From: Mesotaenium endlicherianum
Lineage: Eukaryota
Direction of reading: 5' to 3'
Length of the DNA stretch: 47,172 bases
NCBI GenBank assembly: GCA_009602735.1
Contig: WELA01003381.1
Span: 1-47,172, forward strand
The notes beneath the pieces are model-generated. The model saw only the letters and a program-made list of their open reading frames with translations. It ran no database searches and was not told the DNA's origin. Positions 171 to 47,172 of the stretch are shown here, one piece after another. Both the position numbers and the translations under genes were made by a program. The first letter of the stretch is position 1. Each line of letters starts with the position of its first letter.

Positions 171-467
171 ATGGCTCTTACCACACAAAAAGAAGACAGA
201 AAGCGCAAGGCAGAAGAAGCCAGGAGGACAATGGAGCAATACCAGAAAGAGCTGGCGGCGACGTCCCTCAATAGGAGAGAACAAAAAAGGGTCCGCAAAC
301 AACAAGAGGCGGCAGAAGAAGTACAGAGGAAGAAGGAGCAGGAGGCGGAAAATCTCAGGAAGGCTGAGGAGGAGAGACAAAAGAAAGAAGAAGTGGCGGC
401 GGCAGAGGAGGAGAGAAGGAAGAATGCTGAAGCTGAGAAGCTTGGTGTATACCATGGAGTCTCATGA
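171..467 (+). pseudogene. Truncated charged coiled-coil ORF resembling the N-terminus of the chromovirus extra 3' ORF at 38990
   Basis: RKRKAEEARRTMEQYQKELAATSLNRREQKRVRKQQEA vs KRKRRAEEAHAEYLQFRGDIESSSISARESQRLQQQREA. Both ATGs sit in the context GCAGGATG. Confidence 0.45.
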
Positions 468-580
468 CATCACTTAGGTGTCATCGTGCCTCTTGGTAAC
501 ATAATATATATAATATATGTATATAGATATATATATATATGTTATATAAAACGCGCTATGTATTTATGTATTATAATCGA

Positions 581-2103
581 CGTCGCGACTGCTATCCACT
601 TGACGGTGCCGCACGCGCAGCGCAAGTCACGGTCGCCCAGGTACGGGAAGTCAGCATTGACTCACAGACCAGAGGACCGAGTCAGCGGTCATGTTGAAGT
701 CGTTGTCACTGTCAAAGTGGTCACGACACGTCACACCCACACCCAAAACGGGATGGGGATGTGGACCGAGTGGGCAGCCGAAAGGCTAGGGGCATGGAAC
801 CAGCAATGAGCCAGCCTAGCGAGTGCCAAGAAAGGTACTGATCAATCGGCTATTCAAGCCAAGTACAGCGGGGACGTTGCAAAGGGCGTTGAGTGCCGCC
901 TTGGCTAGGCCCTCAGGTGACTGGTCACGGCCTGAGCGTTCATCCTAAATGTTGCCAGCCAGCCACATAGGCGTGATTGTCAGGTGGAAGGCTAAGTGGT
1001 CACGCGCAACAATCCTAATGCATGCATGCATGTTGAATGACAACTTCTAAGCTGTGTGAGAGCTGCTGGGTAAGGACGGCATGCAAGCTAAGCGCTGTGA
1101 CTAAGCACTGGTATTCTCGAAAGAGGACAGTGTGTGGTGCTTGTGAAAGGCACGAGTCCTGCCATAAGCTGCCTTATCCTTGCTCGCATTGTTGTCAAAG
1201 GAAGCTGAAGAAGCAGAAGGAGTGCAAAGAAGAAGGAGTTCCCAAGGCCATAGAAGGGCCGAGGTGCCACGCTTCTACCGACGCTAAAAGATTTCTTCTT
1301 AAGTGTATCATAGAAAGGTTAGGCCTCAGGAGTTCCCAAGAGAGGATCTCGCTGGTGGAAAGTAGAGAGCTGCAAAATAGAATCTGTTAGGAGATTAGCG
1401 CAGATTGAGGTCAAATGCCGCAAGCGTGCGAGGGTCACTTAAAATGGTGAGTGCTGTGTTAGTCTCCAAGTTCTCAGAAGTCTCCATTGTCGAATTGCTA
1501 ATAGCAAGAGTAGTATTAACAAGTAAAGCTCTCAGTGAAGAACTGAGTGAGCCCAGCCAAGCACTGAAGAACTGTTAAGGCGCGGTGTTGAGCGAAGAGC
1601 TCAGACCAGGCCAGCATAGATGTGCAGTTCAGAGTTTTGTAAGCTGTGACTCGTGGAAGTTAAGCGAAAGTCTTGAAGGGCGATTTTCTCTGAACTTGAC
1701 ATTGCCTGTTAAGCTGCTTAGACGTGATTTCTGCAAACTACAAACTTGTTCATTCTGTAAACCCTCAACTTGGGCGAAAGCCTGTGTGGAAGTAAGACGC
1801 TTCTGTCCTTGTAAGGGAAATTGAAGATAAGCTATCTTTTCGAAAATTTCTTGCTAAGTGTTGAATGAGGAACTGGTTGAACATGGGAAGCACTGAGTGT
1901 GGGATGCCTCACCGCATGATGCAAGTGCAAGAAGACCAGGAATGGGTCAAACCCCAACCAGTCTGTCACTGACACACGTGCAAGGGACGATCAACCCGGT
2001 CGATGCCCACGTGCAGCGACGCACCGACACGTCAACCAAGTCGAAGGCACACGTGCTGAGAAGCCACGCACGCGCCAGGGGTCCGTCGCTGTTAGGCACG
2101 ACA
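581..2103 (+). repeat. Isolated ~1.5 kb unit of LTR family L2 (segments B+A of the DNMT-Gypsy LTR)
   Basis: Reverse-complement homolog of 18284-20600 and 20603-20947. Termini (C/T)GTCGCG...CACGACA. Flanks TCGA/TCAA are a possible 4-bp TSD. Sits in TA-rich DNA. Confidence 0.8.
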
Positions 2104-2490
2104 TCAATAATACAATATATATAGCCTTGACATATACATATGTATACGTATATACATTCCTGTATATGTACAAACAATATCTATACGCAAAATGCAAAGT
2201 ATAGCCCGTATATATACACGTGTATGTACTCTTACGAACTATGCATATATGCGATGCAAAATTGCAAACCGTAGCTCATATATATACACGTATGTATATA
2301 ACCAAATGAGCTTTGCAATGTTGCGAGACATCAAGCCATAATATATATAAATACATATACATATTACTTAATACGCTTGCATGCAATAGTGTGACTCGTT
2401 AACCTTATATGTAATAATACACAAATGTATATTATTACAGATTACACACTAAAGCGAAACATTGAGCTATAATGTGTACGTGCATATACA
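2104..2490. repeat. AT-rich/(TA)n region with degenerate tandem units; continues 497-580; possibly the decayed LTR of the adjacent Gypsy
   Basis: Repeated tatatatacacg and gcaaaatgcaaa motifs; lies directly 3' of the decayed minus-strand integrase/chromodomain. Confidence 0.4.
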
Positions 2491-4284
2491 CTACGCTCTT
2501 TGTCACTTGCCAAATGACAAACCAACAATATAATTTTCAACAAATCGCATTAAGGGTTATACAAAGTTCCCAGAAGAAAATTGTACATATATTTTAGAGT
2601 GCAACGGTGTTCGAGAACACCCTCATTACTCACACGACTTTCTTGTTCGAGTTTCAACTCCGGTGGATGAGGTTGATAACTACCTTCATACCTAAACATT
2701 GAGTACATCGACAGGGAACACAAGTGATCCCGCAAGGCAATAACGTTTGCTTGCTGGCACTGGAGCGGTAAGGTTGTAGTATGAACAGAATATTGTCGCC
2801 TAACGCAAACCTTGGCGCATCATGTGCGTGTCAATAAATTTCTTCGTGTTTATCTTGAGCGGCTACCAAAGCCATTGCCTGTGTGTACATTTCCAAAGAG
2901 AATGAACAGTTGGCGTGCACTGAAACTCTTAGGTTGGCATCCCCAGCTTCACATTGTGAACTAAGTCGGAAAGCGGGGTGTAAGAATGCCTTTCATGACT
3001 TCTTAAGAACAAAAATGACTTAATACCTTCCGTCCAAACATTATTAACTGCAAATCTTGCGAGGGTATCTCAATCATGTTGAAGATCCACATAATGCGTG
3101 GGGAATCACTGCAAAACAGGGTTCAGTTGTTCTGTTTGGCGATGTGTCTGCGAATGAAAACTTATGGACATCTTGAAGTGCGTACCAATCACAAGACACT
3201 TCATGGAAGAAATGACTTGTAAATTTGATACAACGAGCACTTACAATGCCCTTGCGCATCCATGCGACTTGAAGTCACTATCAATAAAAAGACGCGCAGT
3301 CTTTTTGACAACAAGCGGCGGCGTGGTGGGCACAACGTGCATCACTTGGTGAAAGAATAAACTTTTTGTTTAACACCACTTGATGACCCCTTAGTGTAGA
3401 ACGCATGTTCACGATACAATCAAGGCTAATACGCTTTACAGGCCACTGGCAAGCTCTAATGGATGCAACTTTCAAGCTGGCAACGTATTGCCTTGTTTTT
3501 TCGCTGACAAGTTGCACAGTTGATGAAATACTCCTTAACACCAACCTTAAGGGACTGCCACAGGTTACCCTTCATGCAACAAACAAGGCAGTTTTGGCAG
3601 TACCATAACGACCAAGTAAGGAGAGTCATGCGCTGCACATAGTAGCACATACGTTACTTTGGCCTTCTGGGATCACAATGCACCCATTGTGCCACCAAAA
3701 TCCCTTCTTAAACAAAGTTAGAGACTTAATTCCAATTATTCAAATTGCACATCACGACCGCTACACGATTCAAGACAATACCAAGGAGATGTAGGAAAAA
3801 CGGATCCTCAGTGTAGCCATCCTTGATCATTTGATGCAGGTCAAATGAAAAAGAATTAGCTATGCTACCTGAAATGGGTTTGCTCGCGTCACCAGGCTCA
3901 TTTGGTCTAGACGCGTGCGTGGATACAGCAAAATCAAGGGTGGCCACCCCTGAAGCCTGACCGTTTTGTTCTACATGCCCAGCTACGGGTCTCATCAGCA
4001 AGACTACATGATGGAGATTCGACTGAAAGGATCAGCAACATTGTTGCAACCAGGGCGATACGCCCATTGAAAGTGGAATCATTGTAAGAACTCAGAGCAG
4101 CGTGTGTGCCTTCTTGATAATGTTGGTTGCTATTGGAAGAAGGTAACCAGACAGTAGTTCGTAACAACTGCGAGGCCCTTGAGCGTTCCAATCAGCTTCA
4201 CCAGACTCCTTTCAAGCGTTTTAATTGCTTAGAGCTCGCGCTCTATAAGTGAGTGATTATGTTCGGCAGTGTTCAGCTTACAAC

Positions 4285-9177: not shown

Positions 9178-9897
9178 TGAAATGAATCGACTTACCAATA
9201 GGCGAATAACAATTAATGAAGATCTTTATATTAGCCAGTAATCTTTATGTTATTTTTTGTTAACTGATTAAACAGCAAAAAGACAACACACTAGCAGTGG
9301 ACAATACTCACAAGTCAAATGCAAGTAAAGTAGCATCAATAATGCAATCAGTAAACTCGTACATAAGCAAGGCTAGAAGACAGTGTGTGTCAATGGCTTC
9401 TCGCCTTGGATTCAGATATCTCTCAGTAAGCAGTACAAGAGAGTTGGCCTCGTTTCCAAATGCCGAACTCGAGACCAATATCTAGCATATGTATATGGAA
9501 TGAGTTTACAGTTCAACGGCAAGTGCGATGGCACCGCCTACCCGGGAGTTAACCACGTTGGTAGGATCTCGGTTAACCAAATCCACCGCCATCTCCCATC
9601 ATCCCGAATCGCCATCCATCCTAAGGATGTCATGTGGCCATTCATCTAGCACACCACACTTAGATGCATATCTAGGCAGTTTGCTGCTACCGAGTACGGA
9701 AGTCAGCTGGCTGTCAAAGAATGTGTCAGCAAGCTGTCCTAAGTTGACTTCAGCCTGCTGCTCTCGGCTGAGTCATTAAATTGATAAGTATATAAAGTCC
9801 AGCAGAATGAATTTTGATTAAAGTTCAGCAGGTTGAAGTTAATTAACTAATACATACAAATGAATATTATATAATATCAATATACTGATTCATTACA
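9178..9897 (-). repeat. Solo LTR, family L1 (LTR of the chromovirus at 32808-41485)
   Basis: TGAAATGAATCG...GATTCATTACA; reverse complement of 19756-20464. Flanks ATGGG/GTGGA match only imperfectly. Confidence 0.9.
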
Positions 9898-10029
9898 GTG
9901 GATGGGACGGGTGGGAAATATAAATAAAACCCCCGCTGATCCCTCATTTGCAACGGGACAAAAAATGGCTCCTACGGTTGCAAAAATTGACTTGACATGT
10001 GCGAGGGGGACTAATAAATTGTCGCCCTT

Positions 10030-10385
10030 AATCGCAAAAAGTCCACAGATTTTTGTAAAATCCGAACTCCCCTACCTTGGGTTTTACCAAATAAAACCCT
10101 CATATGTGCAACGCGATACAAAGTCCACATACAATCTCAAATCTTGAGTGTAACACGTGGGCGGGTGACTGACACCTTTGATCACAAAAGTCAACCAAGG
10201 GTAGTCCACAGATTTTTGTGAAAACCAAACTTCTTGACCTTGGGATGTACATGTAAATCCCATGCGTCTGCAAAAATCGACCAAACATGTGAAAGGAGGA
10301 CTCACAAAGTCCCCTAATCCATGAAATGTTGACTAGGGGAATGCCACAGATTTTCGTAAAATTTGGGTTTCCCTATGGTGGAATT
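10030..10385. repeat. Three degenerate ~150-bp direct repeats upstream of the transposase (possible subterminal repeats)
   Basis: CCACAGATTTT(T/C)GT(A/G)AAA cores at about 10043, 10206 and 10344. Confidence 0.55.
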
Positions 10386-12328
10386 TAACTAATCAAATAC
10401 CCTCTTTATATGCTGGTGGTATATAACGACCAGCAGGAGCATTGCTGGGGCCAAAATTGGCCTCCAGTAGACCTTCAAAAGGTCACGTGACAGCACAGGT
10501 GGTCCGCCGAGCTTGTCGGCCAGACTGAACGGGAAGAGGGAGCCTCTAATAAAAGAAAGTCCCCCCCCCCAAGCGACTGACCGGAGCGGCCGAGGTCATA
10601 AACGGGCCCACAGCGGACCTTTTTTTTGGCCACCAAGGGGACCCGTAAGGTCCCCCGTCATGAAAGCAATCCTGCCGATCCACCTGGCGAGATCGGGCGG
10701 GCAGGAGGAGCCCGTGAAAGATCCCCCCCACTCTAAAAACTTACTAATATATATGCTGGCGTATGCAGACGCCAGCAGCGACCACAAAAGGCCAAGGCAA
10801 ACATGCCCAGCCGTACATCAAAAAACGTCAAGATGACGCGACACTGCGCCGATATAACGTCACCACATGCAGCCCAAATGCCCATTTTTTGGACACTTAG
10901 GTACTTTATAGCGCCATTTGCGGCGGTTTTATCGGAATGGTATGAAATCTGGACAACTAAGAGATAACCCCCATATAAAGGCCTCTCTAAAGTTTCAAAC
11001 ACAGCTGACATATTTTCCATAAGTTATTACACTTTTAGTAAATTGAAGAATATGTCAACAAAAGTGGAAATTGTCACTTTCTCTCATTCTTGCTGCTTCA
11101 CACAAATGACCATCATTTCTTCAAAAAGTTCCTAATGGACTCCATTTTGAGAGGTTACTAAGGACCCTCATAGGTAGCCATGAAATTAAAAATATATTAA
11201 TTTTCATAGAATCACTTTAAGTTATGGACCTCCAAAGTTTGCCATGTGGCGCTTTTCACACATATGAAGAGTGGCCGTCCGTAAAATGCGGTATTCTTGT
11301 AGTACGGATCTGAAAATTGTTTTTTTGGATTTTTTATGCCCCCATAGAGCTATTGATGAAGTTTTGGGTCATTCCATTCAGTGAGACCCAAGATATGCAC
11401 ACAAACTGAAATCTACAAAAGTAAGCGATAGTTGGAAAAATATTACATGTTGCACTATTCTTTCACTTCATCAGATGGCCATAACTTGTACTCCACTTTT
11501 TTGATTCCCCCCAAATTTTTAGGAGGCATTAAGGATCCAACTGGGTAACCATGGATCAAAAAAAAATCAGTTTGCATCAAACCACACCAGGCTGTGAGCC
11601 TCCAAAATGTGACATATGGAGTTTCTCGCACATGTGAAGCATGCCAGTCCGTACAATGCAGAAACACTTGGAGTACGGATCTGAAAATGGTTCTACTAGA
11701 TTTTGCACCCCCCCATAGTATTACTGGTCAACTTATAGCCCATTCTAAGCACCACAGCCCAAGATAAGGTCCATGAGCTACATATGCAAAAGTAGGCGAT
11801 AAGTCGCCTACTTCTTGAATTGTGACTTTTTTTCATGCATGTGTTAACAACTTGGCATTGTGTTATGCTAGTACTTTGCATGATTTTTCTTCTATGTAAG
11901 AGGATTCCATAACAATTTCAAGTTTGAAAGTTGAAGGTGTTTTCAATCTTGAAGAGTTTTTTGAAGTTTAATGAAAATTACGCGTAAAAAACCTGACATT
12001 GTAGTTTTCACACTCTCATAAGTCTTGCTACATGTGCATTTCAATGTATGCCACATTTTTGGTGTGTAGGCAGATGTGAACTCTACATGTTCGTATAAAT
12101 TTTTTTCCTAAAAAGCAAAAAATGTTTTTTAGAATTAAAATTCAAAAATAAAAAATACCAAAGAATTGCTGAACCAACATTTTACCACCTACCTACCTAC
12201 CAATCCGCCTATAACTCTGTACACATTCATACAAATTTCTTTTTCATCATGAATCTTGTAGAGTCTGTGTCCCAGGTAGAACTGCACCCATTCCTAGAGC
12301 CAAAAAGCATCATGATCAACCCAATCAA

Positions 12329-14608
12329 ATGACATTACCAAGAGTGCAAATTAACCCAAACATGCCTAGAGGAGCAAGTGGCAAATTTCTGAAGAGGAAG
12401 AAAACAGGTGCTGAGAATGCACCTGTAGATACTTCAAAGAGGCTAGAGAGTAAAGTAGAGAGATACAAGTCTGAAATGCTAAAATATGCAGATGAAAACG
12501 GAAGCCTGAAGAAGAAAACAACTGATAGGGAGGTACAGGTTGCTCGGCAGTTCATGGGCATGAAGAAAGACTTGAGAGGAGCTAAGAGAGAGATAAGGTA
12601 CCTGAAGCAGAAGGTGTCTATGGCAGGCCCTCAAATTCCTCCAACAAAGCGTCGTAGAGTAGGTGGAGGATCTGCAAGAACATGGCAAAGAATGAGCAAT
12701 GACCTGAAGCTATTTATGGGGGACAAGTTTGGATGTGAGACAAACATGACCAAGTCATTGACAGCCTTCTTGAACAAGCCAAAGAACAAAGACATGCTGG
12801 AAGCTATTACAACAGAATTGCACCTGAAGCCAATCATAGAGGAGGCTACAGTGAAGCAAATACAGGCGCAGTGGGATGACAGGTTAGGGCTTGCTATCAA
12901 GTACAAGTCGAAGCTTTCTTAAGAGCAATACCAAATGCTTGTCAACATCATGTCAAAGACATACTCTCAAGCAACAGGACTATAGGAGCCCAACACCAAG
13001 ATTCCCCTTCCCAAGCTGCTTTCCAGGAGGAAAGTAAAGAACCTGGCAGCCAAGATCTATGCTCAAGTGGGACCCCAAGAGAGTGCAGATGGGCTGACAG
13101 TGACCTTGTCATTGCAAGAGACTTTAAGACAACGCATACTAGAATTGCAGCTCCAACCAGGCAGAGTAGTAAGCGTGCAGATTATAGGAGACGCAGCAGC
13201 ACTCCACAGGGGAGTGGACCAGACTACAATAGCTGTCAAAATTATAACAAAGGACAGCTTGGGCATGACAAACTCAGCAGCTAATACTTGCACCCTCGTA
13301 TGCTTTGAAGGTCAGGATGACTACAATAGCATACAGGGAGTGGCTTCAAGGCTACTGGAGGAAATGGGCACTGCCATTACAGCAGGCCTGCATGTAGCAA
13401 AGGACCTATTCAGAGTCAAGTTCTATCAAGGTGGCGATTACGAATTCAGTAACAGCTTGTTTGGGCTGACTGGAGCAAGCTCAACATACCCGTGCTTATG
13501 GTGCCTATGCACGTCGAAGGACATCCATGACAGGTGTCACCGCGGTGCCCTTTGCACCTTAGAGGGGATGAAGGCTGCAGCTCATGCCCCTGACTTGGGC
13601 AAGTTGCCAATGACGTGTCCACACAGCTCAAAAGATTTTGAGAGTATGTCAGACCTGGACAATGACATCATAAAGACAACGCGGGGCAAGCCACAGAAGA
13701 AGAGTAGATTGGACTACCAACTCCAGCACCAAGGGCAAAGGCATAAGAAGCCAGCATTGTTTAATATACCTCCCAGTGACTGTGTTGTGTTCATATTGCA
13801 CTTGAACTTGAGAATCTCAGCTACACTGCATGAGAGAACTTTGCATGCATTCTTACCAGCAGGGCAGGACAAGGAGGATGAATTCTATAAGCTCTTGAAA
13901 GAAAAGGTGAAGGCATCAATACCTAAGGAGGCTGTAAAGGCCTTGAAGAAAGGCGAGAAGAGAAACAGGGCAGCCAAGCCAAGCTTCATTGGACGGGAGT
14001 GCCACCGCCTCCTCGAGCACTTTGTAAAGCTGGCAGAGTGTGTCTTTTGTAACCTGCCTGATGATGCAGAACAGCTACAAGCCGTGTTAGAAGCATGGGA
14101 TGCTTATGGAGTGTGCTTGGCTGGTCTTATGGAGCCAATATCTGCACTAGACACGGGCAACGAGAGAGAAGCTAAAGCTTCTCTTGTGGAGGCCCTTGCT
14201 GAAGACTATGAGGACAAGTTTGTAGTTGCTTGCGCAACAGACCACATTACTGAGTACATGCACATTTCGAAGGGCCACATAGGGGATAATATCTGGAGAC
14301 ATGGGGACCTAGATCAATTCAGTGGGGAAGGTATAGAGGCATTGCATCAATGGAGGAAATCAGCCAAGACCAACAAGAGGAAGGTGATGGTGGACGCTAC
14401 AGGACGAGTGTATTGCAAAGGGAGAATAGGCCAAACAACACATCAAGAGAGTGGGAAGAGAGCTCTATCTACCATCATAGAGCTACCATTGAGTAGAAAT
14501 GAAAGACAAAAGAGGAAGAAGGTGGTGTTCAAGCGACGACAGTTGGCACCAGTCGTGACAAGATCTAATCCAGCAGACATGAAAGAAGCAATTGGAGCAG
14601 GAGAGTAG
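12329..14608 (+). pseudogene. RAG1/Transib-like (Transib/Chapaev-type) DDE transposase, ~760 codons, two in-frame stops
   Basis: ORFs 12329-12922 and 13067-14608 are in one frame (stops at 12920, 12983). LAIKYKSKLS*EQYQML ~ RAG1 LAIRVNTFLSCSQYHKM. IIGD (D, 13190). GGDYEF..LFGLTGASSTYPCLWC (D, 13436; CxxC). LHLNLRI. TEYMHISKGH..RHGDLDQFSGEGIEALH (HxxxxH; E, 14336) ~ RAG1 TNYFHKTLAH..RDGSIGAWASEGNESGN. Confidence 0.85.
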
Positions 14609-15790
14609 CTAGAATACATGCTTAGTGTAGGAAGAAAACATTAAATGAAATGTACAATATGTACGTATGCAGCTCACCTGATTAGCTGGAGTCTTTCTTC
14701 TGTTGGCAACTACCTCGCGCGCTCTCTTCATAAGCTCTTTTGATGACAAGTGCTTGCCTTCTCTTACCAAAGCTTGCATTGCTTGAGCATGCTCCTTCTC
14801 TTGTTGCGCAATCAACCTGTCTTCCTCTTCTCTATGTTGAAGCACTTGCCTCACTTCATCTGCAACCTTAGCTATTGCCTCTCTCATAATTTGTATAGCA
14901 GCTTGTTTAGCTAGCTTAGAGGTAGTAGGAGGTTGAGGTGCAAAAGTAGCATGAGAATCTGCTTTTCTTTTAGCAGGTGTGCGCAGATCCTGTGATCTTT
15001 GCATTCTCAACTCACGAGCTGCTAAATCAGCAACTTCTTGCAACTCACAGGCTCTCTTGTAGTTCTCCCTCTCTCTCTCAATCCTCTCTTGTTCCTTCTG
15101 TAGCAAGTTAGCTTTTGCAATTTGTGCTACCTCTATTATGGCATCCATAATTTCAAGCCCATGTGCTTGCATCCTAAGAGGGTAATCTGCAAGTTTATAG
15201 TGTATATGGGTGCTAGTATCAACATGATGATGTGCCTTCCAAACAAGTCTGTCATTACAGTGGTCAGGGGCCATCACAACATGCCCCCCCCTGTTTAAGA
15301 CTGAAAATGAAAACTTTAAAGTGAAAGTTTTCTCTCCAGACTTGTTCATCCTCCATTTCATAAAAAGGGGGGACAATAACTACCACCTCTCCTGATTTTG
15401 GGAGGTAAATTTGGCTGCCCCATAGCCCAAATCAGCATTCACAGATTGAAAGCAAAGAAGAGCATCTAAATCCTCTATAGTCCAACACACTCTTCGAATA
15501 CTTTGAGACACCATGGGCTCGGTTTTGGTAATATAGTGGGACACTTCTTTGCCTACATGTGCAAAAAAAGTCTCAAACAAGTTCTTAGGCACGTTCACAT
15601 CACTAATGCAAACACTTGCTTGAGGAGTAGAGTCTATCCTCTTATAGACACGTCTTCTATAGTTAACAAGCCAGCCCATAGGGTCCACTTCTACAGCCCG
15701 CATGAAAGACTTGTTGCACTTCTGACAGTTGGAAAGTCCCACACCTCTTGATGCACCACAGTTGCTGCAGTAATTGGGAAATGACGCCAT
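14609..15790 (-). pseudogene. Unknown protein (~390 codons, one in-frame stop): N-terminal C4 zinc ribbon, globular middle, coiled-coil C-terminus; convergent partner of the transposase
   Basis: ORFs 15380-15790 and 14609-15376 are in frame across a single TAG. CSNCG...SNCQKC near the start. E/Q/R/A-rich helical C-terminal half. Confidence 0.65.
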
Positions 15791-16462
15791 GCTATAGAGG
15801 GCGGTCTTCCCGACCTGGTTCTAATCGTCCTAGCCCCACCCCAAAAAAGAATGAAGGTAAGAGGTGAATAAGTAGTAATATAGTACTAAAGGTGTATTAC
15901 TATTGCTCTCCAGCTCGATCTTAGGTAAGTAGGAACTTATCGTTGATGTAATAATGAATCCTCAAATATGCTCCCAACCCTAAAGACTGCCCCCCAATCT
16001 GCCTCCAAGGCAAAAGTTAAGTAAATATGATTTTTTCCCTTCTTATGGGGCTTATGTTGATACTCACAATTGACTGTGTTTCCCAGGCTGCTCGTACCCC
16101 TCCTCACAAAATTATCTCTAAATATCTAAAAACGAATTTGTCCAAAAATCTATGGGGCAATTATGATCCAAAGCCGTTTCTGGTTCTTTCAACGCAAAAA
16201 ACAAGCATTAAGTGGCAAACGCGACTTTTCGGCCAAGTCTGTTCGTCGTCAGGGGTCCTATTAACAGACGCGCACGTGCACGGAATGAATATTGAAACAT
16301 TTTTTTTTTTGAAATGGTTTAAATCAAATAAAGCGGAACGAAGCGACTTGGCTCTATCTACTTAATTTATATATCCTCCTATTATTTGAATTTTGCAAAT
16401 ACGGCGAAATACGCCGCGTTATACGCCGCCAAAGGACCAATACGTGTGTATTTCATAACTAG

Positions 16463-17195
16463 GCATACAGTGACCTTTTGTCATGGAGTACTTGTGGCCA
16501 ATTGATTCATTTAAAGTCTCAAAAATTTTGGAAGAAAAAAAGGCAAAACACTCAAGGACCATCAAACTTTGGCTTCTCCTCTTTCCGTCTCACCCATCTC
16601 TCAATATGATTTTGGAGCACCAATCTTTGATGAAAGATCAACAATAGCCTTGTAGGCAGATAACATGTCTTTCCATTTGAAATTACATTGATCCGGTGTT
16701 CTAGCGATCCCATAAAGACCCATTAATTCAAAACTTGCTAGCCACTTCTCAACTGCTAATTGGTGAACCGATTTCCTCTTGGTAGAGAACCCCCCTACCC
16801 CCCACGAATTTACCTTTTGCTAAGGGTTTCATACCGGCTGCACTCTTCTTGCCCTTAGTTCGCTCTCTCATTTTCATACCTGCCCTTGCACAAGCTTCTA
16901 CAAGACAAAGTATGGCTTCCTCCAACCATAGCTCTTCCTTGGTCGGAGGAGACGGTGCCACTAGTGGTGCGACGGGAAGAGCAACTAATGGAGCAGTTGA
17001 AGGACCTTGTCCTCCAATGCCGACATCAGAATCTGATAAACCCACAAAGAGCAGGACTTGTGCCTCTTCACTAGGATGCGCCGAGTTTCAGAGGGCTCCT
17101 ACATTAACCTCTTGGACCACAACGGGTTGCATATCTTGCATCTCGGCCTGACCTTATTCTATATCTAGGGGAGCTGAGCGTGAAGAAGAAGCCAT
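16463..17195 (-). pseudogene. Trihelix-type Myb/SANT-like DNA-binding protein pseudogene
   Basis: ELWLEEAILCLVEA..., then after a frameshift EKWLASFELMGLYGIARTPDQCNFKWKDMLSAYKAIVDLSSKIGAPKSY*EMGETER. Fits the trihelix pattern R..QC..KW..L...YK.I.D....SYW.M...ER. Confidence 0.75.
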
Positions 17196-17480
17196 TTGGG
17201 TGCCGGAAGTGAAAAGTGGAAGCTGGGTAAGCGAGAATGGTGAAATGAGGCTTGCTCTCGCTACATTAATGCAAATTGGGATAAGGGTCGTTTTATTCAT
17301 TCATGAGTAATTCGTGGATTGGAGGATTGGCGCGAGTTTGCAAACACTTAACCAAAGTTCGGGCGAAAGTTGGCACATGCAGGCAAGTGTTTGAAAATGG
17401 CTACAAAGTACGCTAAGCAATACTTTACAACGAGTTGGAGAAGTCGTTTTTGACTGGTACGTCAGGTACTTCACACGACC

Positions 17481-17981
17481 TGTAGTGAAACAGATAGATA
17501 AAGTACTTAGTAAAATAGAATACTTTATCTAGTCAAAACAAGGATCTTTGAACACAAGTGGTAGCTTCTTGAAAGGGAGATGGCTTTTTCAAAGTTGATA
17601 TATTTCTGGAACTTGGCAAGTACAAGAGTGATTTTGGAATCCCTTTCTATGTTCTAGCTCTTGTTTATATACTTGCTACATAAGTTATTTCTAGTAAGGT
17701 GCATATTGATGTGTTGGCACCCAACACATCCAAAACTTGCCACCTCTTTCTAGAATAATGTAAACATGTCATTTTGACCTAAAAATGGCACATTTGACTT
17801 TTGCCACATGGAGTTCTTCTAAGGCCTTCCTCTAACTTTGAAAATGCCTTAGAAGGTTCAAAGGATATGAACCAAGTCACTAGAGTATCTATTCACACTT
17901 GAATACACACAATACTACTCAAAATGTATTTAAAAGCATTGAAGTAAAGCAAACTTCTATAATACAATTAAAATCACCACA
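17481..17981 (-). repeat. Solo LTR, family L3 (~500 bp)
   Basis: TGTAGTG...CACCACA termini; 5-bp TSD CGACC/CGATC; reverse complement of 46691-47172. Confidence 0.85.
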
Positions 17982-18245: not shown

Positions 18246-20947
18246 TGTTAAGGATGCGAATAGATGGGGGAAGCGAGAAGATTGCCTAACAGCGTCAAAC
18301 CCCTGCCACGTGCGTGGCTTCTCAGCACGTGTGCCTTCAACCTGGTCGACGTGTCAGCGGTCCTTCTCGCGTGCGGGGATTCCCTGGTCGTTTGGTCAGT
18401 GCGTTGTTGCACGTGGGAAATTGACTGGGTTGATCGACCTTTGCACGTGTGTCGATGGCAGGCTAGCTGGGGGTTGACCCATTCCTAGTCTTCCTGCACT
18501 TGCATCATGCGATGAAGCATCCCACACTCAGTGCTTCCCATGCTCAACCAGTTCCTCATTCCACACTACCAACTCTTAGTAGAAATTTTAAAAAAGTTAG
18601 CTTATCCTCAGTTTCCCTTACAAGGACAGAAGCGTCTTACTTCCACACAGGCTTTCGCCCAAGTTGGGGGTTACAGAATGAACAAGTTTGTAGTTTGCAA
18701 AAATCATGTCTAAGCAGCTTAACAGGCAATGCCACATTCAGAGGCAATCGCCCTTCAAGGCTTTCGCTTTACTTTCACAAAGTCACAGCTTACAAAACTC
18801 TGAAACTGCACATTTATGCTGGCCTGGTCTGAGCTCTTCGCTCAACACCGCGCCTTAACAGTTCTTCACTGCTTGGCTGGGCTCACTCAATTCTTCACTG
18901 AGAGCTTTACTTGTTAATACTACTCTTGCTATCAGCAATTCAACAATTGAGACTTCTGAGAACTTGGAAACTAACACAGCACTCACCATTTTAAGTGACT
19001 TTCGCAGGCTTGTGGTGTTTGACCTGAATCTGTGCTAATCTCCTAACAGATTCTATTTTGCAGCTCTCTACTTTCTACCAGCGAGATCCCATCTTGGAAA
19101 CTCCTGAGGTTTAACCTTTCTATGATACACTGAGAAGAAATCTTCCAGCGGCGCCAGAAGCATGGCGTCTCGCCTCTTCTGTGGCCTTGGGAACTCCTTC
19201 TTCTTTGCGCTCCTTCTTCTCCTTTCCTTCTGTACCTGTGCTCCTTCAGCTTCCTTGACAATGATGCGAGCAAGAATGAGGCAGCTTCAGGCAGGACTCG
19301 TGCCTTTCGCAGGCACCACACATTATCCTCTCTTGAGAATGCCTGTGCTTAGTTTCAGCGCCTAGCTTGCAAGCCGTCCTTACCTAGTAGCCCTCAAACA
19401 GCTTTAGAAGTTGTCACTCAGCATGCATGCACGCCTTGTGACTGTCATGCGTGACTGCTTAGCCTTTCAGCTGGCAATCACGCCTATGTGGCTGGCGGCT
19501 GGTAGCGTTTGAGATGAACGCTCAAGCCGTGGCTAGTCACTTGAGGGTCTTGGCCGAGGTGGCACACAATGCCTCTGCAACATCCCTGCTGTACTTGGCT
19601 TAGATGGCCGATTGATCAGTACCTTACTTGGCACTTGTTGGGCTGGCTTATTGCTGGTTCCAGGCCCCCAGCCTTTCGGCTGACTACTCCGTCCAAATCT
19701 CCATCCATCCCTGGGTGTGGGGTTTGACGTGTCGTGACCACTTTGAAGGTGATAATGTAATGAATCAGTATATTGGTAGATATAATATTCATTTAAATAT
19801 AATAGTTAACTAAGTTGAGCAGGCTGAACTTAGTTAGTAATGAGCCTGCTGGACTTTACATAATTACCAGTTTAAAGACTCAGCCGAGAGCAGCAGGCTG
19901 AAGTCTACTAGGTCAGCTTGCTGACACATTCTTTGCCAGCCTGCTGCCTTCCGTACTCGGTAGCAACGAACTGCCTAGATATGCATCTAGGTGTGGTGTG
20001 CTAGAGGAATGGCCAGATGACATCCTTAGGATGGATGGCGATTCGGGATGATGGGAGATGGCGGTGGATTTGGTTAACCGAGGTCCTACCAACGTGGTTA
20101 ACTCCCGGGTAGGCGGTGCCATTGCACTGGCCGTTGAATAGTAAACTCATTCCATGTACATATGCTAGGTATTGCCCTCGACTTTGGCATTCAAAAACGA
20201 GGCCAACTCTCTCGTACAGCTTACTGAGAGGGATCTGAATCCAAGGCGAGAAGCCATTGATATGCACTGTCTCCTAGCCTTGCTTATGTGCGAGTTTACT
20301 GATTGTATTATTGATGCTAGTTTACTTCCATTTGACTTATGAGTATTGTCCACTGCTAGTGTGTTGTCTTTGCTGTTTAATCAATTAACAAAAAATACCA
20401 TACGGATTACTTGCTGATATAAGGATCTTCATTAATTGCCTATTTGGTAAGTCGATTCATTTCAGATAACGAATTTGACATAATCGCTGACTGAGATAAC
20501 TCAGTCCTTTGGTCGATGAGTCAATGCTGACTTTCCGTACCTGGGCGGCCGTGACTTGCGCTGCGCGTGCGGCACCGTCAAGTGGATAGCAGTCGCAACA
20601 GCTGTCGTGCCTAACAGCGTCGGACCCTTGGCACATGCGTGGCTTCTCAGCACGTGTGCCTTCAACCTGGTCGACGTGTCGGCGGTCCTTCTCGCGTGCG
20701 GGGATTCCCTGGTCGTTTGGTCGGTGCGTTGCTGCACGTGGGGAATGGACTGGGTTGATTGACATTTGCACGTGTGTTGGTGGCAGGCTAGCTGGGAGTT
20801 GACCCATTCCTAGTCTTCCTGCACTTGCATCATGCGGTGAAGCAACCTACACTCAGTGCTTCCCATGCTCAACTAGTTCCTCATTCCACACTAACAACAC
20901 TCAGTAGAAATTATTGAAAAGTTAGCTTATCCTCGATTTCCCTTACA
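18246..20947 (-). repeat. 3' LTR (family L2) of DNMT-Gypsy 1, with an internal ~340-bp direct repeat and a nested solo LTR
   Basis: Minus strand starts TGTAAGG right after the PPT and ends CCTTAACA. 18284-18622 repeats 20608-20947. Confidence 0.7.
19756..20464 (+). repeat. Solo LTR, family L1, nested in the L2 LTR
   Basis: TGTAATGAATC...GATTCATTTCA with a perfect 5-bp TSD GATAA; L2 sequence is continuous across it. Confidence 0.95.
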
Positions 20948-26329: not shown

Positions 26330-27318
26330 TCCACCAGCCAAGTCATAGAGTGCTGTCCAATCATATTGCCGAAAATCTTCGCAGCTTCATCTGACCCTAC
26401 AACACCGACTATCTGCCGAGCTATGGTGTCGGGTATTCCAAGACACTTTCCCTTCTCCACCGCAGTAGGCTCTCTCCAAACGGCATCTCTTTCATACATG
26501 TCTTTGACCATTCCTGGTCCACCTCCTATGAAGGCTCGGCATCCTGGATACGTTGTGAAGGTAGGCAGTACCACCCTTGGCTGGCCTGGTTTGTTGATGA
26601 CACACTGTGGATAGGAATCCCTCCTGGTCACTGGCCTGATATGTACCGCCAGCGCCTCTTCCACTGTCAATGCCGTCGGTGATCGCCGCGTAAGGTCCTC
26701 CATCTCTCTCAGGACCTCAATAGGCATGCCGTTGGTCCAAAATGTTCTGGCCCTATGGGATAATCCTCCGTGCTTGGCGTCATCGATTAGCACATGATGA
26801 CCCAAGGTGGAGTCGAAAATCAGCTATGGCTCTCCCGGCTTCATCTGCTTGTAATCCATTCTTGGATGCACGTTCTTAATCACAAACACTGGTGGATGAT
26901 AGTGCTGATATTCGCGCAGCATGCTGATGATTTTCACCATCCATCCCCAATGTTGTGCTCGTGGATCATTGAATCCCCTCCTGTTCCCAGCTTGAGAAAA
27001 CGGTTGACAAGGGAATCCAGCAAAGATCCAGACAATCCTGTAGCCATACAGGTCTTCAGGTTTCACATTAATAATGTTGCCTCCAGCGATGCGCTCAACA
27101 TTGGTGTATGCAGACACCAACCCCTGAAAGTGATGCATTTGCTGCATCTGACTCATGACTTCTCTGAATTCTAGAAAAGCGTGGTTATCATTGTCCACAT
27201 ACAGGATTTTGGCCACCTGTATCCCTTGCTGGATCAATGCTATGGTCCCAGACCCAAGTTCGGCGAACAATTCCAACACCACTACTCCCTTTTTACAAAA
27301 AGGATCTCCCATCCTCAC
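26330..27318 (-). pseudogene. C5 cytosine DNA methyltransferase domain within Pol
   Basis: Motif I VLELFAELGSG, IV AGFPCQPFSQAG, VI VIKNV (ENV decayed), VIII HRARTFW, IX REPTAVE..CLG, X IFGNMI. Same reading frame as the upstream protease and downstream RT. Confidence 0.9.
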
Positions 27319-27599
27319 AATGCCTTATGGCAGCAGCTCGGCTCCAGGCATCAGGTTTGCAGCAGAGGTAACTGGGTAGGGTACTGGCAGCAGCTCTTGC
27401 GGCCCGCGCTCCCTGTTACTCACAATTTCTAGTTGCTCCATAATCCAAGGTTGCCATACCAAGGGTGTTGGCATGTGGATGCTCGTATAGCTTTCCTCTT
27501 CGCGCTTCATGATGTTGTCGTAGGATTCTGGGTACCTGTCGTGAACGCAACAGGCTAGCAGCCCGTAGTTTGCTTCTCCTGTGCAAACCATCTTCACAG

Positions 27600-32260: not shown

Positions 32261-32807
32261 TTATAGCAAGGTCCTCTCGGCTTGACATTTTGCTGCATGT
32301 GCTGGTTCTGCACAAGTCCCAACTTCATAGGTACTGGACCTTGTCCACTCGTGCTTGGCGCTTGAGAACCAAACTGTCGATGTCCTCCAGAGTTTCGGCT
32401 GCCCCACTGCCTCCGACCAGCGTCGACCCTTGTTGCCAATGCCATCCTTTCTCCAAGATTGGTAGGGTCCTTGAGCGCCACTTCCTTGGCCACGGTTGGC
32501 TTGAGTCCCCTCTTGAACTTGTCCATCATCTCCGACTCGTGCATAGATGGACATCAAAGCACCAGCTCGTTGAAGCGCAAAACATACTCCTGAACGCTTC
32601 CTCGTTGACGAAGGCGCACCAATAGATCTCGAGCAGTAACCTTGGGTGCAATAGGTTGAAATTGCCTCTTCAAACCTTCAAATAGCTGATCAACAGTAGC
32701 AGGTTCTCCAGACAGCTGCTCCTGTCGCTCATACCAAGCTCCAGCACACTTCTTCAGCAAAGTAATAACAAAGGCGACTTGCCTGTCAGGCCTGAGCGCA
32801 TAATATT
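32176..32807 (-). pseudogene. gag: Gag (5'-truncated by insertion)
   Basis: Retrotrans_gag-like LRQRGSVQEYVLRFNEL, KFKRGLKP, GPVPMKLG, CCHC knuckle. Confidence 0.9.
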
Positions 32808-33383
32808 TGTAATGAATCAGTATATTGGGTGATACAATATTCATTTAAATAATAAAGTTAAATAAGTTCAGCCTGCTGAACTTTAGTTAACATCGAGTCT
32901 GCTGGACTTTATTAAATCATCAGTTTAATGACTCAGCCGGAAGCAGCAGGCTGAAGTCAACTTAGGTCAGCTTGCTGACAAATTCTTTGACAGTCAGCTG
33001 ACTTCCGTAGTCGGTTGCAGCGAACTGCCTAGATATGCATCTAAGTGTGGTGTGCTAGATGAATGGCCAGATGACATCCTTAGGATGGATGGCGATTCGG
33101 GATGATGGGAGATGGCGGTGGATTTGGTTAACCGAGGTCCTACCAACGTGGTTAACTCCCGGGTAGGCGGTGCCATTGCACTGGCCGTTGAACAGTACAC
33201 TCATTCCATGTACATATGCTAGGCATGCTAGTCTACTCGCATTTGACTTACGAGTATTATTCACTGCAAGTGTGTTGTCCTTTGCCGTTTAACCAGTTAA
33301 CGGGAAATACCATAAAGATTACTTGCTGATATAAAGATCTTTATTAATTGTTAATTGCCTATTTGGTAAGTCGATTCATTTCA
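32808..33383 (+). repeat. 5' LTR (L1) with an internal deletion
   Basis: TGTAATG...ATTTCA. Shorter than other L1 copies; deletion lies between ATGCTAG microhomologies near 33220. Confidence 0.9.
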
Positions 33384-40720: not shown

Positions 40721-40734
40721 TAAGTTGGAGGGAT
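40721..40734 (+). promoter_or_regulatory. Polypurine tract preceded by an 8-bp hairpin
   Basis: TAAGTTGGAGGGAT then the LTR TG; hairpin TGTTGTCG-AGG-CGACAACA at 40699-40717. Confidence 0.75.
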
Positions 40735-41485
40735 TGTAATGAATCAGTATAAAAGTTGATATAATGTTCATTTAAATATAATAGTTATATAAGTTCAGCC
40801 TGCTGAACTCAAGTTAATAATCAGTCTGCTGGACTTCATATCTAATATCAGTTTAATGACTCGGCCGAAAGCAGCAGGCTGAAGTCAACTTAAGTCAGCT
40901 TGCTGACACATTCTTTGACAGCCAGCTGACTTCCGTACTCGGTAGCAGCNNNNNNNNNNNNNNNNNNNNNNNNNNNNNNNNNNNNNNNNNNNNNNNNNNN
41001 NNNNNNNNNNNNNNNNNNNNNNNNNNNNNNNNNNNNNNNNNNNNNNNNNNNNNNNNNNNNNNNNNNNNNNNNNNNNNNNNNNNNNNNNNNNNNNNNNNNN
41101 NNNNNNNNNNNNNNNNNNNNNNNNNNNNNNNNNNNNNNNNNNNNNNNNNNNNNNNNNNNNNNNNNNNNNNNNNNNNNNNNNNNNNNNNNNNNNNNNNNNN
41201 NNNTATTCGGAAACGAGGCCAACTCTCNNNNNNNNNNNNNNNNNGATCTGAATCCAAGGCGAGAAGCCATTGATACGCACTGTCTTCTAACCTTGCTTAT
41301 GTATGAGTTTACTGATTTGCATCATTGATGCTAGTTTACTCNCATTTGACTGACGAGCATTATTCACTGCTAGTGTGTTGTCCCTTGCCGTTAAACCAGT
41401 TAACGGAAATACCATAAAGACTACTTGCTGATATAAAGATCTTTATTAATTGTTAATCGCCTATTTGGTAAGTCGATTCATTTCA
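40735..41485 (+). repeat. 3' LTR (L1), containing assembly gap 40950-41203
   Basis: TGTAATGAATC...GATTCATTTCA. Confidence 0.9.
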
Positions 41486-46690: not shown

Positions 46691-47172
46691 TGTAGTGATT
46701 TGAGTTATTATATATTAGTTTGCATATATTTTATTGTTTTCAAATATATTTGGAGTAGTATTGTGTGGAGTCAAGTGTGAATAGGTACTCTAGTAACTTG
46801 GTTCATGTCCTTTGAACCTTCTAAGGCATTTTCGAAGTTAGAGGAAAGACCTAGAAGAACTCCATGTGGCAAAAGTCAAATGTGCCATTTTTAGGTCAAA
46901 AGGACATGTGTACATTATTCTAGAAAGAGGTGGCAAGTTTTGGGATGTGTTGGGTGCCAACACATCAACATACACTTTCCTAGAACTTACTTATGTAGCA
47001 AGTATATAAACAGGAGCTAGAACATAGAAAGACATTCCAGAATCACTCTTGTACTTGCCAAAATCCAGAAATATATNCATTTTACTTTCAAAAAACTACC
47101 ACTTGTGTTCAAAGATCCTTGTCTTGAATAGATAAACTATTCTGTTTTACTAAGTACTTTATCTATCTGTTT
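46691..47172 (+). repeat. LTR family L3, truncated by window end
   Basis: Starts TGTAGTGATT; homologous to 17481-17981 (reverse) and 1-77. Confidence 0.85.

What the first reader, a model, noticed from the sequence alone, without database searches (positions are those of the whole stretch)
12329..15790. RAG1/Transib-like transposase paired tail-to-tail with an unknown zinc-ribbon gene: ProtoRAG-like architecture in an apparent plant-lineage genome
Seen: a RAG1-core-like ORF on + and a ~390-codon ORF on -, whose stop codons abut with zero spacing (TAG|CTA at 14606-14611). Both carry only 1-2 nonsense changes and no frameshifts, consistent with one element. Known: ProtoRAG and the vertebrate RAG locus have convergent RAG1 and RAG2, while Transib usually encodes only the transposase. 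Inference: this may be a two-gene RAG1-like transposon that recruited a different partner (C4 zinc ribbon plus coiled coil, no visible kelch repeats or PHD). That would be an independent parallel to RAG2 acquisition.
Basis: partly seen in the sequence, partly recalled or inferred. Interest (0 to 1): 0.9.

Follow-up and report, generated by a model that had tools for sequence, protein, structure and literature searches.

The report
RAG1-like transposon with non-RAG2 partner
A repeated, now broken jumping gene in what is likely a green-algal genome encodes a DNA-cutting enzyme predicted to fold like the antibody-gene recombinase RAG1, and faces it with a second gene that is not recognisably RAG2 yet sits in the same place in two distant relatives, so RAG1-type enzymes likely took on a different helper gene in the plant lineage.

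Summary
Largely confirmed, and extended. ORF1 (12329-14608, +) is a RAG1/Transib-type DDE transposase: its family profile hits RAG1 (E 3e-18) and ProtoRAG RAG1L (3e-16), and its model matches RAG1 (Z 24.9). Its closest named relatives are green algal (Pterosperma, Cymbomonas, Mesostigma, about 30% identical). The family carries an extra zinc finger inside ZnB and lacks the CCGHC tail. Both ORFs lie in one multi-copy element: sharp left end CACATG at 10864, right end unresolved near 16.5 kb. Key result: 2 of 4 fetched relative loci carry a convergent ORF overlapping the transposase end, and it is homologous to ORF2 (profile E 5e-13; top 2 of 1154 window segments). The other two contigs end too early to judge. 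ORF2 shows no kelch, PHD or known family. Corrections: the ORF2 'nonsense' stop is likely a pair of compensating frameshifts, and zero spacing is incidental (relatives overlap by 67 and 78 nt). What ORF2 does is untested; an accessory role in transposition is the likeliest. TIR pair and TSD are not shown. New variant of the RAG1/Transib kind; interest 0.74.

The parts
10864..16496 (.). Whole two-gene DNA transposon copy (left end shown; right end is a best guess, somewhere between about 16450 and 16575)
   Evidence: Summed contig depth 460-3860 inside against about 100 just outside; contigs identical to the window at depth 39-64 lie at 9990-10783 and 16404-17506
10864..10900 (+). Left terminus, starting CACATG (CAC as in Transib, RAGL and RSS ends); the 5 bases before it are GTCAC
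   Evidence: 22 contigs of run X2 run into unrelated flanks (agreement 0.38) exactly before 10864; sequence
11185..11766 (+). Subterminal direct repeat, two copies about 370 nt apart, about 70% alike (11185-11395 and 11555-11766)
12329..14608 (+). ORF1: RAG1/Transib-like DDE transposase, 759 codons, broken by stops at codons 198 and 219; N-terminal coiled coil, then RAG1-like core (model residues 177-723)
13190..14338 (+). Catalytic triad D288 (13190), D370 (13436), E670 (14336) and ZnB ligands C389, C392, H645, H650
   Evidence: D288 in 85 of 85, D370 in 92 of 93, E670 in 77 of 80 aligned relatives with a residue at that column; C389 93 of 93, C392 91 of 92, H645 78 of 81, H650 75 of 79; aligned to RAG1 by HMMER
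13583..13729 (+). Family-specific extra zinc finger H419-C430-(C433)-H467 inserted in ZnB; third ligand is Ser in this copy
   Evidence: H419/C430/H467 present in 63 of 78 core sequences, one side of a tree split with SH-aLRT 98; stretch C392 to L490 has median 98 aa against 60 aa in the 15 others
14609..15790 (-). ORF2: partner gene, 393 codons as read here
   Evidence: homologous to the convergent ORFs of L001 and L002
15716..15769 (-). C4 zinc-ribbon-like motif of ORF2
   Evidence: Two C-x2-C pairs in the window and in the L002 partner; the L001 contig ends before this part; Pfam DZR_2 only at E 0.014, below its cut-off
15113..15634 (-). Conserved core of ORF2 (about residues 53-226), no known family
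   Evidence: Two-sequence partner profile, 34 bits, E 4.6e-13; no Pfam, NCBIfam or PDB sequence match
15361..15413 (-). Likely compensating frameshifts of this copy; they create the in-frame TAG at 15382-15380
   Evidence: indel table; frame test
14756..15160 (-). Two long helices of ORF2 (coiled-coil-like); only the first has a counterpart in the relatives
   Evidence: H211-269 and H291-345 in a single-sequence model; alignment
14609..14677 (-). Possible 69-nt AT-rich GT-AG intron; if real, the 'abutting stop' is a splice acceptor and ORF2 ends antisense within ORF1
   Evidence: sequence only (GC 0.33); no spliced read seen; untested
16483..16496 (-). Best candidate right terminus (reads CACAAG inward; 9 of 14 bases match the left end; next 5 bases GCCAA match the left flank GTCAC at 3 of 5)
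   Evidence: weak: one of 7 GTG-ending candidates in 16100-16700

Best explanation
This is a decayed copy of a multi-copy DNA element that carries two tail-to-tail genes: a transposase predicted to fold like the RAG1 core, which likely cut the element out at its CAC-starting ends and pasted it elsewhere, and a conserved non-RAG2 partner that likely served as an accessory factor for that transposition. Shown: one element, RAG1-type sequence profile and catalytic residues, a sharp left end, and the same gene pair at two distant relative loci. Inferred from RAG1, BbRAGL and HzTransib: a transposase dimer binds both ends, cuts by nick and hairpin with D288/D370/E670, and inserts with a short, probably 5-bp, duplication. 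Inferred and untested: ORF2 uses its zinc ribbon and core domain to bind DNA or chromatin and its helices to bind itself or the transposase, helping to assemble or aim the complex. My split for ORF2's role: transposition cofactor about 50%, anti-silencing or chromatin regulator about 30%, other or passenger about 20%.
For: Transposase: 402 relatives at E<=0.001; profile to RAG1 3jbw E 3.4e-18 and BbRAG1L 6b40 E 3.3e-16; model pLDDT 86.7; Z 24.9 (rmsd 3.6, 454 aligned) to RAG1, 21.4 (3.8, 450) to BbRAG1L, 21.2 (4.0, 425) to HzTransib, next family P element 12.3. One element: raised depth across both ORFs and a drop on both sides; 22 contigs break at 10864; a contig of depth 785 that is 82% identical over 13919-14563 goes on to match ORF2 at 14880 (same depth value links the two rows); single contigs join the left subterminal part to the 3' ends of the genes (11192 to 14683; 12233 to 14473), as internal deletion derivatives would. 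Conserved partner: L001 and L002 carry a convergent ORF overlapping the transposase end; ORF2 against L001 partner BLASTP E 4e-7, 23% over 229 columns, against L002 partner E 0.002; a profile of these two alone ranks the two halves of ORF2 first and second among 1154 window segments, and 0 of 1000 shuffles reach the score in any of 4 comparisons. Partner identity tracks transposase identity (window-L001 24/32%, window-L002 20/30%, L001-L002 41/46%), as expected for a gene kept under selection with the transposase. In a 30-nt stretch of a divergent subfamily shown (loose end before 14880), 7 of 10 differences fall on third codon positions of ORF2 (counted by hand).
Against: No function of ORF2 was tested, and it has no known family. 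Only 3 partner sequences are known; L001 and L002 share an accession prefix, so they may come from one assembly, and their host is inferred only from 68% and 47% identity to a Cymbomonas protein. L003 and L004 show no partner match, though they end about 100 and 330 nt after the transposase and belong to more distant subclades (24% and 23% identity to the query). The right end, the TIR pair and the TSD are not shown (the local alignment of the two end regions scored 42 against a shuffled maximum of 52). In three RNA runs of the same species label, read in part, ORF1 and ORF2 had depth 0 in two and at most 1.4 in the third, so the family seems silent there; these are other samples.
Confidence: 0.75

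Rival explanations
1. ORF2 is a true gene of the element but acts on host silencing or on the element's own expression (in the manner of the accessory genes of other DNA transposons), not on the cutting complex.
For: CMCT-clade and other DNA transposons often capture accessory genes, for example TET/JBP in fungal EnSpm, ESTA and Plavaka (PMC12730594, passages). HzTransib works as a single protein (PMC10629977, passages). The host genome is methylation-rich by inference: neighbouring Gypsy elements carry a C-5 methylase domain.
Against: No chromatin-reader, demethylase or nuclease domain is detectable in ORF2. The strict tail-to-tail overlap is kept at all 3 loci where the partner is seen.
Confidence: 0.3
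2. ORF2 is an extremely diverged RAG2, so the element is an early RAGL transposon like AanRAGL.
For: Convergent layout and RAG1 as top structural match; RAGL reaches an alga, Aureococcus (PMC9435367, main text). The L002 partner has a Cys/His-rich start.
Against: No kelch, RAG2 or PHD match in Pfam at E<=1 for any of 3 partners and no RAG2 chain in the PDB profile search at E<=10; no PHD pattern in 3 of 3; the conserved core is about 175 aa with Cys pairs at the N end, against a 350-aa propeller followed by a C-terminal PHD (PMC10629977, passages). The transposase lacks the CCGHC tail of RAG1L.
Confidence: 0.04
3. ORF2 is a passenger or a neighbouring, separate repeat, and the pairing is accidental.
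For: The window is a nest of transposons; ORF2 depth (median 2165) is higher than ORF1 depth (1490) in run X2.
Against: Homologous partners in the same place at L001 and L002; a high-depth divergent contig spans both genes; deletion derivatives that keep the ORF2 end and lose most of ORF1 explain the depth difference.
Confidence: 0.04
4. The element is an already catalogued family of the CMCT clade (for example in Repbase) that the searchable papers do not describe.
For: Repbase could not be searched; Lanisha of moss is named but not described in the passages seen (PMC8245031); Tao et al. list 39 plant Transib-like proteins (PMC9435367).
Against: No Pfam family at cut-off for 15 of 15 members; 0 hits for Chara, Mesostigma, Cymbomonas, Chlorophyta or Klebsormidium in the held supplement of PMC9435367; no matching paper.
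Confidence: 0.15

Closest known systems
RAGL transposons (ProtoRAG/BbRAGL, PDB 6b40; AanRAGL of Aureococcus) and vertebrate RAG1-RAG2
   Same: RAG1 core sequence profile and fold, DDE and ZnB ligands, CAC terminus, two convergent genes (PMC7204232 and PMC10629977, passages)
   Different: Second gene has no kelch or PHD; no CCGHC tail; no Chapa/RING N-terminus; an extra zinc finger in ZnB; only 12-16% identity in the structural alignments
Basal / Subgroup I Transib of Tao et al. 2022 (CthTransib_0091, CthTransib_0066)
   Same: By eye, the same motif series around both Asp residues, CxxC and LH (supplement of PMC9435367); the 15 relatives without the extra finger, 5 of them with the CCGHC tail, look like CthTransib_0091 and form the other side of the tree split
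   Different: Described as single-gene; have CTT1 and a short ZnB loop. The paper's sequences were not aligned or placed in my tree, so this is a by-eye comparison
Canonical Transib (HzTransib, PDB 6pqx, 6pqn)
   Same: Same fold (Z 21.2, rmsd 4.0, 425 aligned); CAC terminus
   Different: [quoted passage not shown]
Other CMCT lineages: EnSpm/CACTA, Chapaev, Mirage, ESTA, Plavaka, Lanisha
   Same: [quoted passage not shown]

Membership tests
RAGL / ProtoRAG | RAG1-like catalytic core (DDE, ZnB) | tested here: met
RAGL / ProtoRAG | Second gene next to RAG1L, usually convergent | tested here: met
RAGL / ProtoRAG | Second gene is RAG2-like: six-bladed kelch core plus C-terminal PHD (by sequence) | tested here: not met
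   No kelch, RAG2 or PHD match for 3 of 3 partners; conserved core about 175 aa
RAGL / ProtoRAG | Second gene is RAG2-like by fold | tested here: inconclusive
   Single-sequence model pLDDT 45, residues 1-225 under 50; no fold search was run on it
RAGL / ProtoRAG and Subgroup I Transib | C-terminal CX2CX3GHX4C (CTT1) tail | tested here: not met
   Absent from ORF1; found in 6 of 150 hits, none with the extra finger
RAGL and Transib | Terminus starts with CAC, heptamer-like | tested here: met
   Left end CACATG at 10864; right end not shown
RAGL and Transib | Paired TIRs and 5-bp TSD | tested here: inconclusive
   Best candidate 16496, 9 of 14 bases, flanks 3 of 5; no other full copy could be fetched
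Canonical Transib | Single gene | tested here: not met
   Conserved second gene
RAGL and Transib | Nick-and-hairpin cleavage | not testable with these tools
   needs biochemistry
Chapaev / Chapaev3 | N-terminal Chapa zinc-finger domain (with or without RING) | tested here: not met
   ORF1 residues 1-197 hold one Cys and give only coiled-coil-type weak Pfam hits; an unseen upstream exon is not excluded
EnSpm/CACTA | CACTA terminus and TnpD-type transposase | tested here: not met
   Terminus CACAT; no CACTA-type Pfam hit in 15 of 15 members
ESTA, Plavaka, Lanisha | Phylogenetic placement and TSD type | not testable with these tools
   Sequences not held; TSD not determined

The most novel reading that the evidence does not exclude
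ORF2 is a working subunit of the transpososome, so this clade is a second, independent two-protein RAG1-type recombinase: the tail-to-tail two-gene layout is old in the RAG1/Transib lineage, the partner slot can be filled by unrelated proteins, and RAG2 is only one of its occupants. The extra zinc finger in ZnB would mark the remodelled surface where RAG2 docks in RAG1.
Probability: 0.3. Interest if true: 0.9.

Novelty: new variant of a known kind. Interest (0 to 1): 0.74.

Why it matters
The current model has single-gene Transib gaining RAG2L once, early in eukaryotes (PMC9435367 main text; PMC10629977 passages). A green-lineage clade of RAG1-like transposases with a different, conserved, convergent partner shows that a second gene in this layout is not unique to RAG2. 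It gives a natural, apparently intact enzyme pair (locus L002, short of a few N-terminal residues) with which to ask what a partner adds to a RAG1-type transposase, a long-standing question about why RAG2 was kept. It also places RAG1-like transposases in prasinophyte and streptophyte algae, where the searches listed found no description.

Tried and rejected
No whole genome was held, so copies could only be seen through read-laying tables. Single-sequence Pfam and PDB searches of ORF1 gave nothing above noise (DUF1280 E 0.16). The word-index protein search was blank for ORF1, ORF2 and even alignment A1, whose members are in that collection, so its blank for ORF2 says nothing. The ESM Atlas gave no answer. 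Scans for relatives were blank in viral contigs (7 of 7), prokaryote genomes (2 of 2) and the first metagenome scan. The ORF2 single-sequence model was unusable, and it was made before the homologues were found. Complex prediction of the natural L002 pair (transposase 15-705, partner 1-280): no verdict, score 0.00, alignments not used, partner fold uncertain. No RNA holder was listed for the stretch. I first read the ORF2 stop as lying in an 83- or 86-nt intron (15386 or 15383 to 15301) and dropped this: the indels of other copies sum to zero and the shifted frame matches the homologues. An internal 10-base inverted match near 16138-16149 was rejected as the right end because depth stays high beyond it. 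The careful tree did not finish; the quick tree has no RAG1, Transib or Chapaev rows and only a midpoint root; 18 of the 96 aligned sequences were left out as shorter than 330 core residues. PMC6872938 (HzTransib structure) was not held; the bioRxiv supplements were not seen.
Full report
OBSERVATION. ORF1 (+, 12329-14608) has 759 codons with stops at codons 198 and 219; ORF2 (-, 15790-14609) has 393 codons with one stop at codon 137; TAG 14606-14608 abuts CTA 14609-14611.

THE TRANSPOSASE. Alone, ORF1 matches nothing in Pfam or the PDB above noise. HMMER over 1.84 billion representatives found 402 relatives at E<=0.001, 9 at E<=1e-30, of which 150 were listed. Of the 27 hits looked up by name, 10 clusters carry an organism name, all green algae: Pterosperma (1), Cymbomonas tetramitiformis (6), Mesostigma viride (2 clusters), the rest unnamed metagenome proteins; best identity is about 30%. 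A profile of 96 sequences hits RAG1 (3jbw, E 3.4e-18) and amphioxus RAG1L (6b40, E 3.3e-16); its first 16 PDB hits are all RAG1 or RAG1L. The AlphaFold model (pLDDT 86.7, pTM 0.79) matches RAG1 at Z 24.9 (rmsd 3.6, 454 aligned), BbRAG1L at 21.4 and HzTransib at 21.2, then P element at 12.3 (Foldseek agrees). D288, D370, E670 and the ZnB ligands C389, C392, H645, H650 are conserved across the family. The family has its own mark: an extra finger H419-C430-C433-H467 between the CxxC and the LH motif, in 63 of 78 core sequences, which form one side of a split with SH-aLRT 98 in a quick, midpoint-rooted tree. The other 15 lack it, 5 of them carry the CCGHC tail, and by eye they resemble CthTransib_0091 of Tao et al.. 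That the insertion lies where RAG1 has its RAG2-binding helices 11-12 is recalled, not tested; PMC9435367 places those helices in ZnB.

ONE ELEMENT. Contigs of public DNA runs of the same organism label (three runs of one sample, plus one other) were laid on the region at 80% likeness. Summed depth is 460-3860 from about 10.8 to 16.5 kb, over both ORFs, and about 100 just outside; contigs identical to the window's flanks have depth 39-64. The ratio suggests some tens of copies (about 25 for ORF1, 36 for ORF2), but the tool warns that summed depth is no copy number. Twenty-two contigs pass into unrelated flanks exactly before 10864, where the sequence starts CACATG. A contig of depth 785 is 82% identical over 13919-14563 and matches ORF2 again at 14880, so a divergent subfamily holds both genes. 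Single contigs join 11192 to 14683 and 12233 to 14473, as internal deletion derivatives would. The right end was not displayed; depth arithmetic puts it between about 16450 and 16575, and 16496 (CACAAG inward, flank 3 of 5 like the left flank) is a weak best guess among 7 candidates.

THE PARTNER IS CONSERVED. A metagenome scan with four Cymbomonas-like transposases returned 4 loci. L001 and L002 each carry a minus-strand ORF (at least 256 and about 297 codons) that overlaps the transposase end by 67 and 78 nt. They are 39-41% identical to each other and homologous to ORF2: BLASTP E 4e-7 and 0.002; a profile built from the two alone ranks the two halves of ORF2 first (E 4e-4) and second (E 0.019) among 1154 six-frame segments of the window, scores the whole ORF2 at E 4.6e-13 in a single comparison, and 0 of 1000 shuffles reach the pair scores, with or without the coiled coil. 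The window and L002 share the N-terminal C4 motif; L001 is cut before it. L003 and L004 show no partner, but end about 100 and 330 nt after the transposase and are distant subclades. L001 and L002 share an accession prefix and may be one assembly; their host is unknown. The partner has no match in Pfam, NCBIfam or PDB sequences, including RAG2, kelch and PHD.

The ORF2 stop is most likely caused by two compensating frameshifts: deep contigs of other copies lack two bases at 15402-15413 and add two at 15361-15363, and the shifted frame fits both homologues best. The zero spacing is incidental; the last 69 nt of ORF2 are AT-rich and bounded by GT and AG, so the 'stop' may even be a splice acceptor (untested). 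The copy is dead: two stops in ORF1, Ser for a conserved Cys, many private changes. RNA reads from three other samples (6-24% of each run read) barely touch either ORF.

HOST. The window is a nest of chromodomain Gypsy elements, two with a C-5 DNA methylase domain, an architecture reported for the charophyte Klebsormidium nitens (PMC5890265, passages). With the green-algal relatives this makes a streptophyte alga likely; a Chara-like host is my recalled impression, not a result.

MECHANISM. Shown: anatomy, homology, co-conservation. By analogy with RAG1, BbRAGL and HzTransib (PMC10629977, passages): end binding at CAC termini, nick-and-hairpin cleavage, insertion with a 5-bp duplication. Inferred: ORF2 is an accessory factor; a role in assembling or aiming the transpososome is my first choice (about 50%), an anti-silencing or regulatory role the second (about 30%).

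NOVELTY. PMC4411706 (passages) states that known Transibs encode one protein; PMC10629977 (passages) that they encode nothing like RAG2; PMC9435367 (whole main text, supplement searches, supplement part 14 of 25) lists plant Transib-like proteins but its held supplement has no hit for Chara, Mesostigma, Cymbomonas, Chlorophyta or Klebsormidium; its full species tables may not be in the held file. Accessory genes are common in the wider CMCT clade (PMC12730594, passages), and TSD and TIR are labile in Transib (10.64898/2026.08.26.747230, passages). PMC7204232, PMC8245031 and 10.1101/2021.09.26.461848 were seen as passages. Paper searches listed no description of this clade or partner; Repbase and most subscription journals were not searchable. 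Earlier notes of this scan report other RAG1-like elements with other partners, none similar by sequence look-up to ORF1, ORF2 or the L002 partner; they are unchecked leads, and they make 'RAG1-like plus some partner' a recurring pattern rather than a one-off. Verdict: a new variant of the RAG1/Transib kind that works, by inference, like a Transib/RAGL transposon but is not a member of RAGL or canonical Transib. Interest 0.74.

Noticed in passing
window 26827-27324 (-) and 41740-42927 (+): C-5 cytosine methylase domains inside Gypsy retrotransposons (Pfam E 8e-14 and 1e-5), as described for Klebsormidium Gypsy-Dnmt3 elements (PMC5890265).
   Followed up: partly
window 16604-16819 (-): Broken Myb/SANT-like (trihelix-type) reading frame just outside the element's right side (Pfam Myb_DNA-bind_4, E 9e-5, below cut-off); low depth, so not part of the element.
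   Followed up: partly
window 9197-9872, 17481-17946, 19755-20471, 32807-33383, 40734-41485, 46727-47172: LTR-like repeats of several nested Gypsy elements; the two laid ones reach summed depth of about 0.5-1.3 million, among the most abundant repeats of this genome.
   Followed up: no
window 10040-10388: Three 48-nt direct repeats 138-163 nt apart in low-copy DNA left of the element; unexplained.
   Followed up: no
window 10863-11130: RNA reads of two other samples (29 and 5 reads) hold the element's left end joined to one and the same foreign flank, so a copy elsewhere lies in a transcribed region.
   Followed up: no
L001:76-105: CACATG, the same six bases as the window's left terminus, about 300 nt upstream of the L001 transposase start; a possible left end.
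   Followed up: no
L002:2050-2240 and L001:2760-2870 (minus strand): Both relatives have a GT donor-like site just after the conserved RRSARL motif of the partner, so their last exon may also lie antisense within the transposase gene (by eye).
   Followed up: no
protein P0179 (Mesostigma gene model, 2844 aa): A transposase of this family is joined in one gene model to a leucine-rich-repeat-like region; probably a gene-model fusion, possibly a domestication.
   Followed up: no
L003:128-1213: A 362-codon ORF without Pfam match overlaps the start of the 980-codon transposase frame on the same strand; a possible different partner or an upstream exon.
   Followed up: partly
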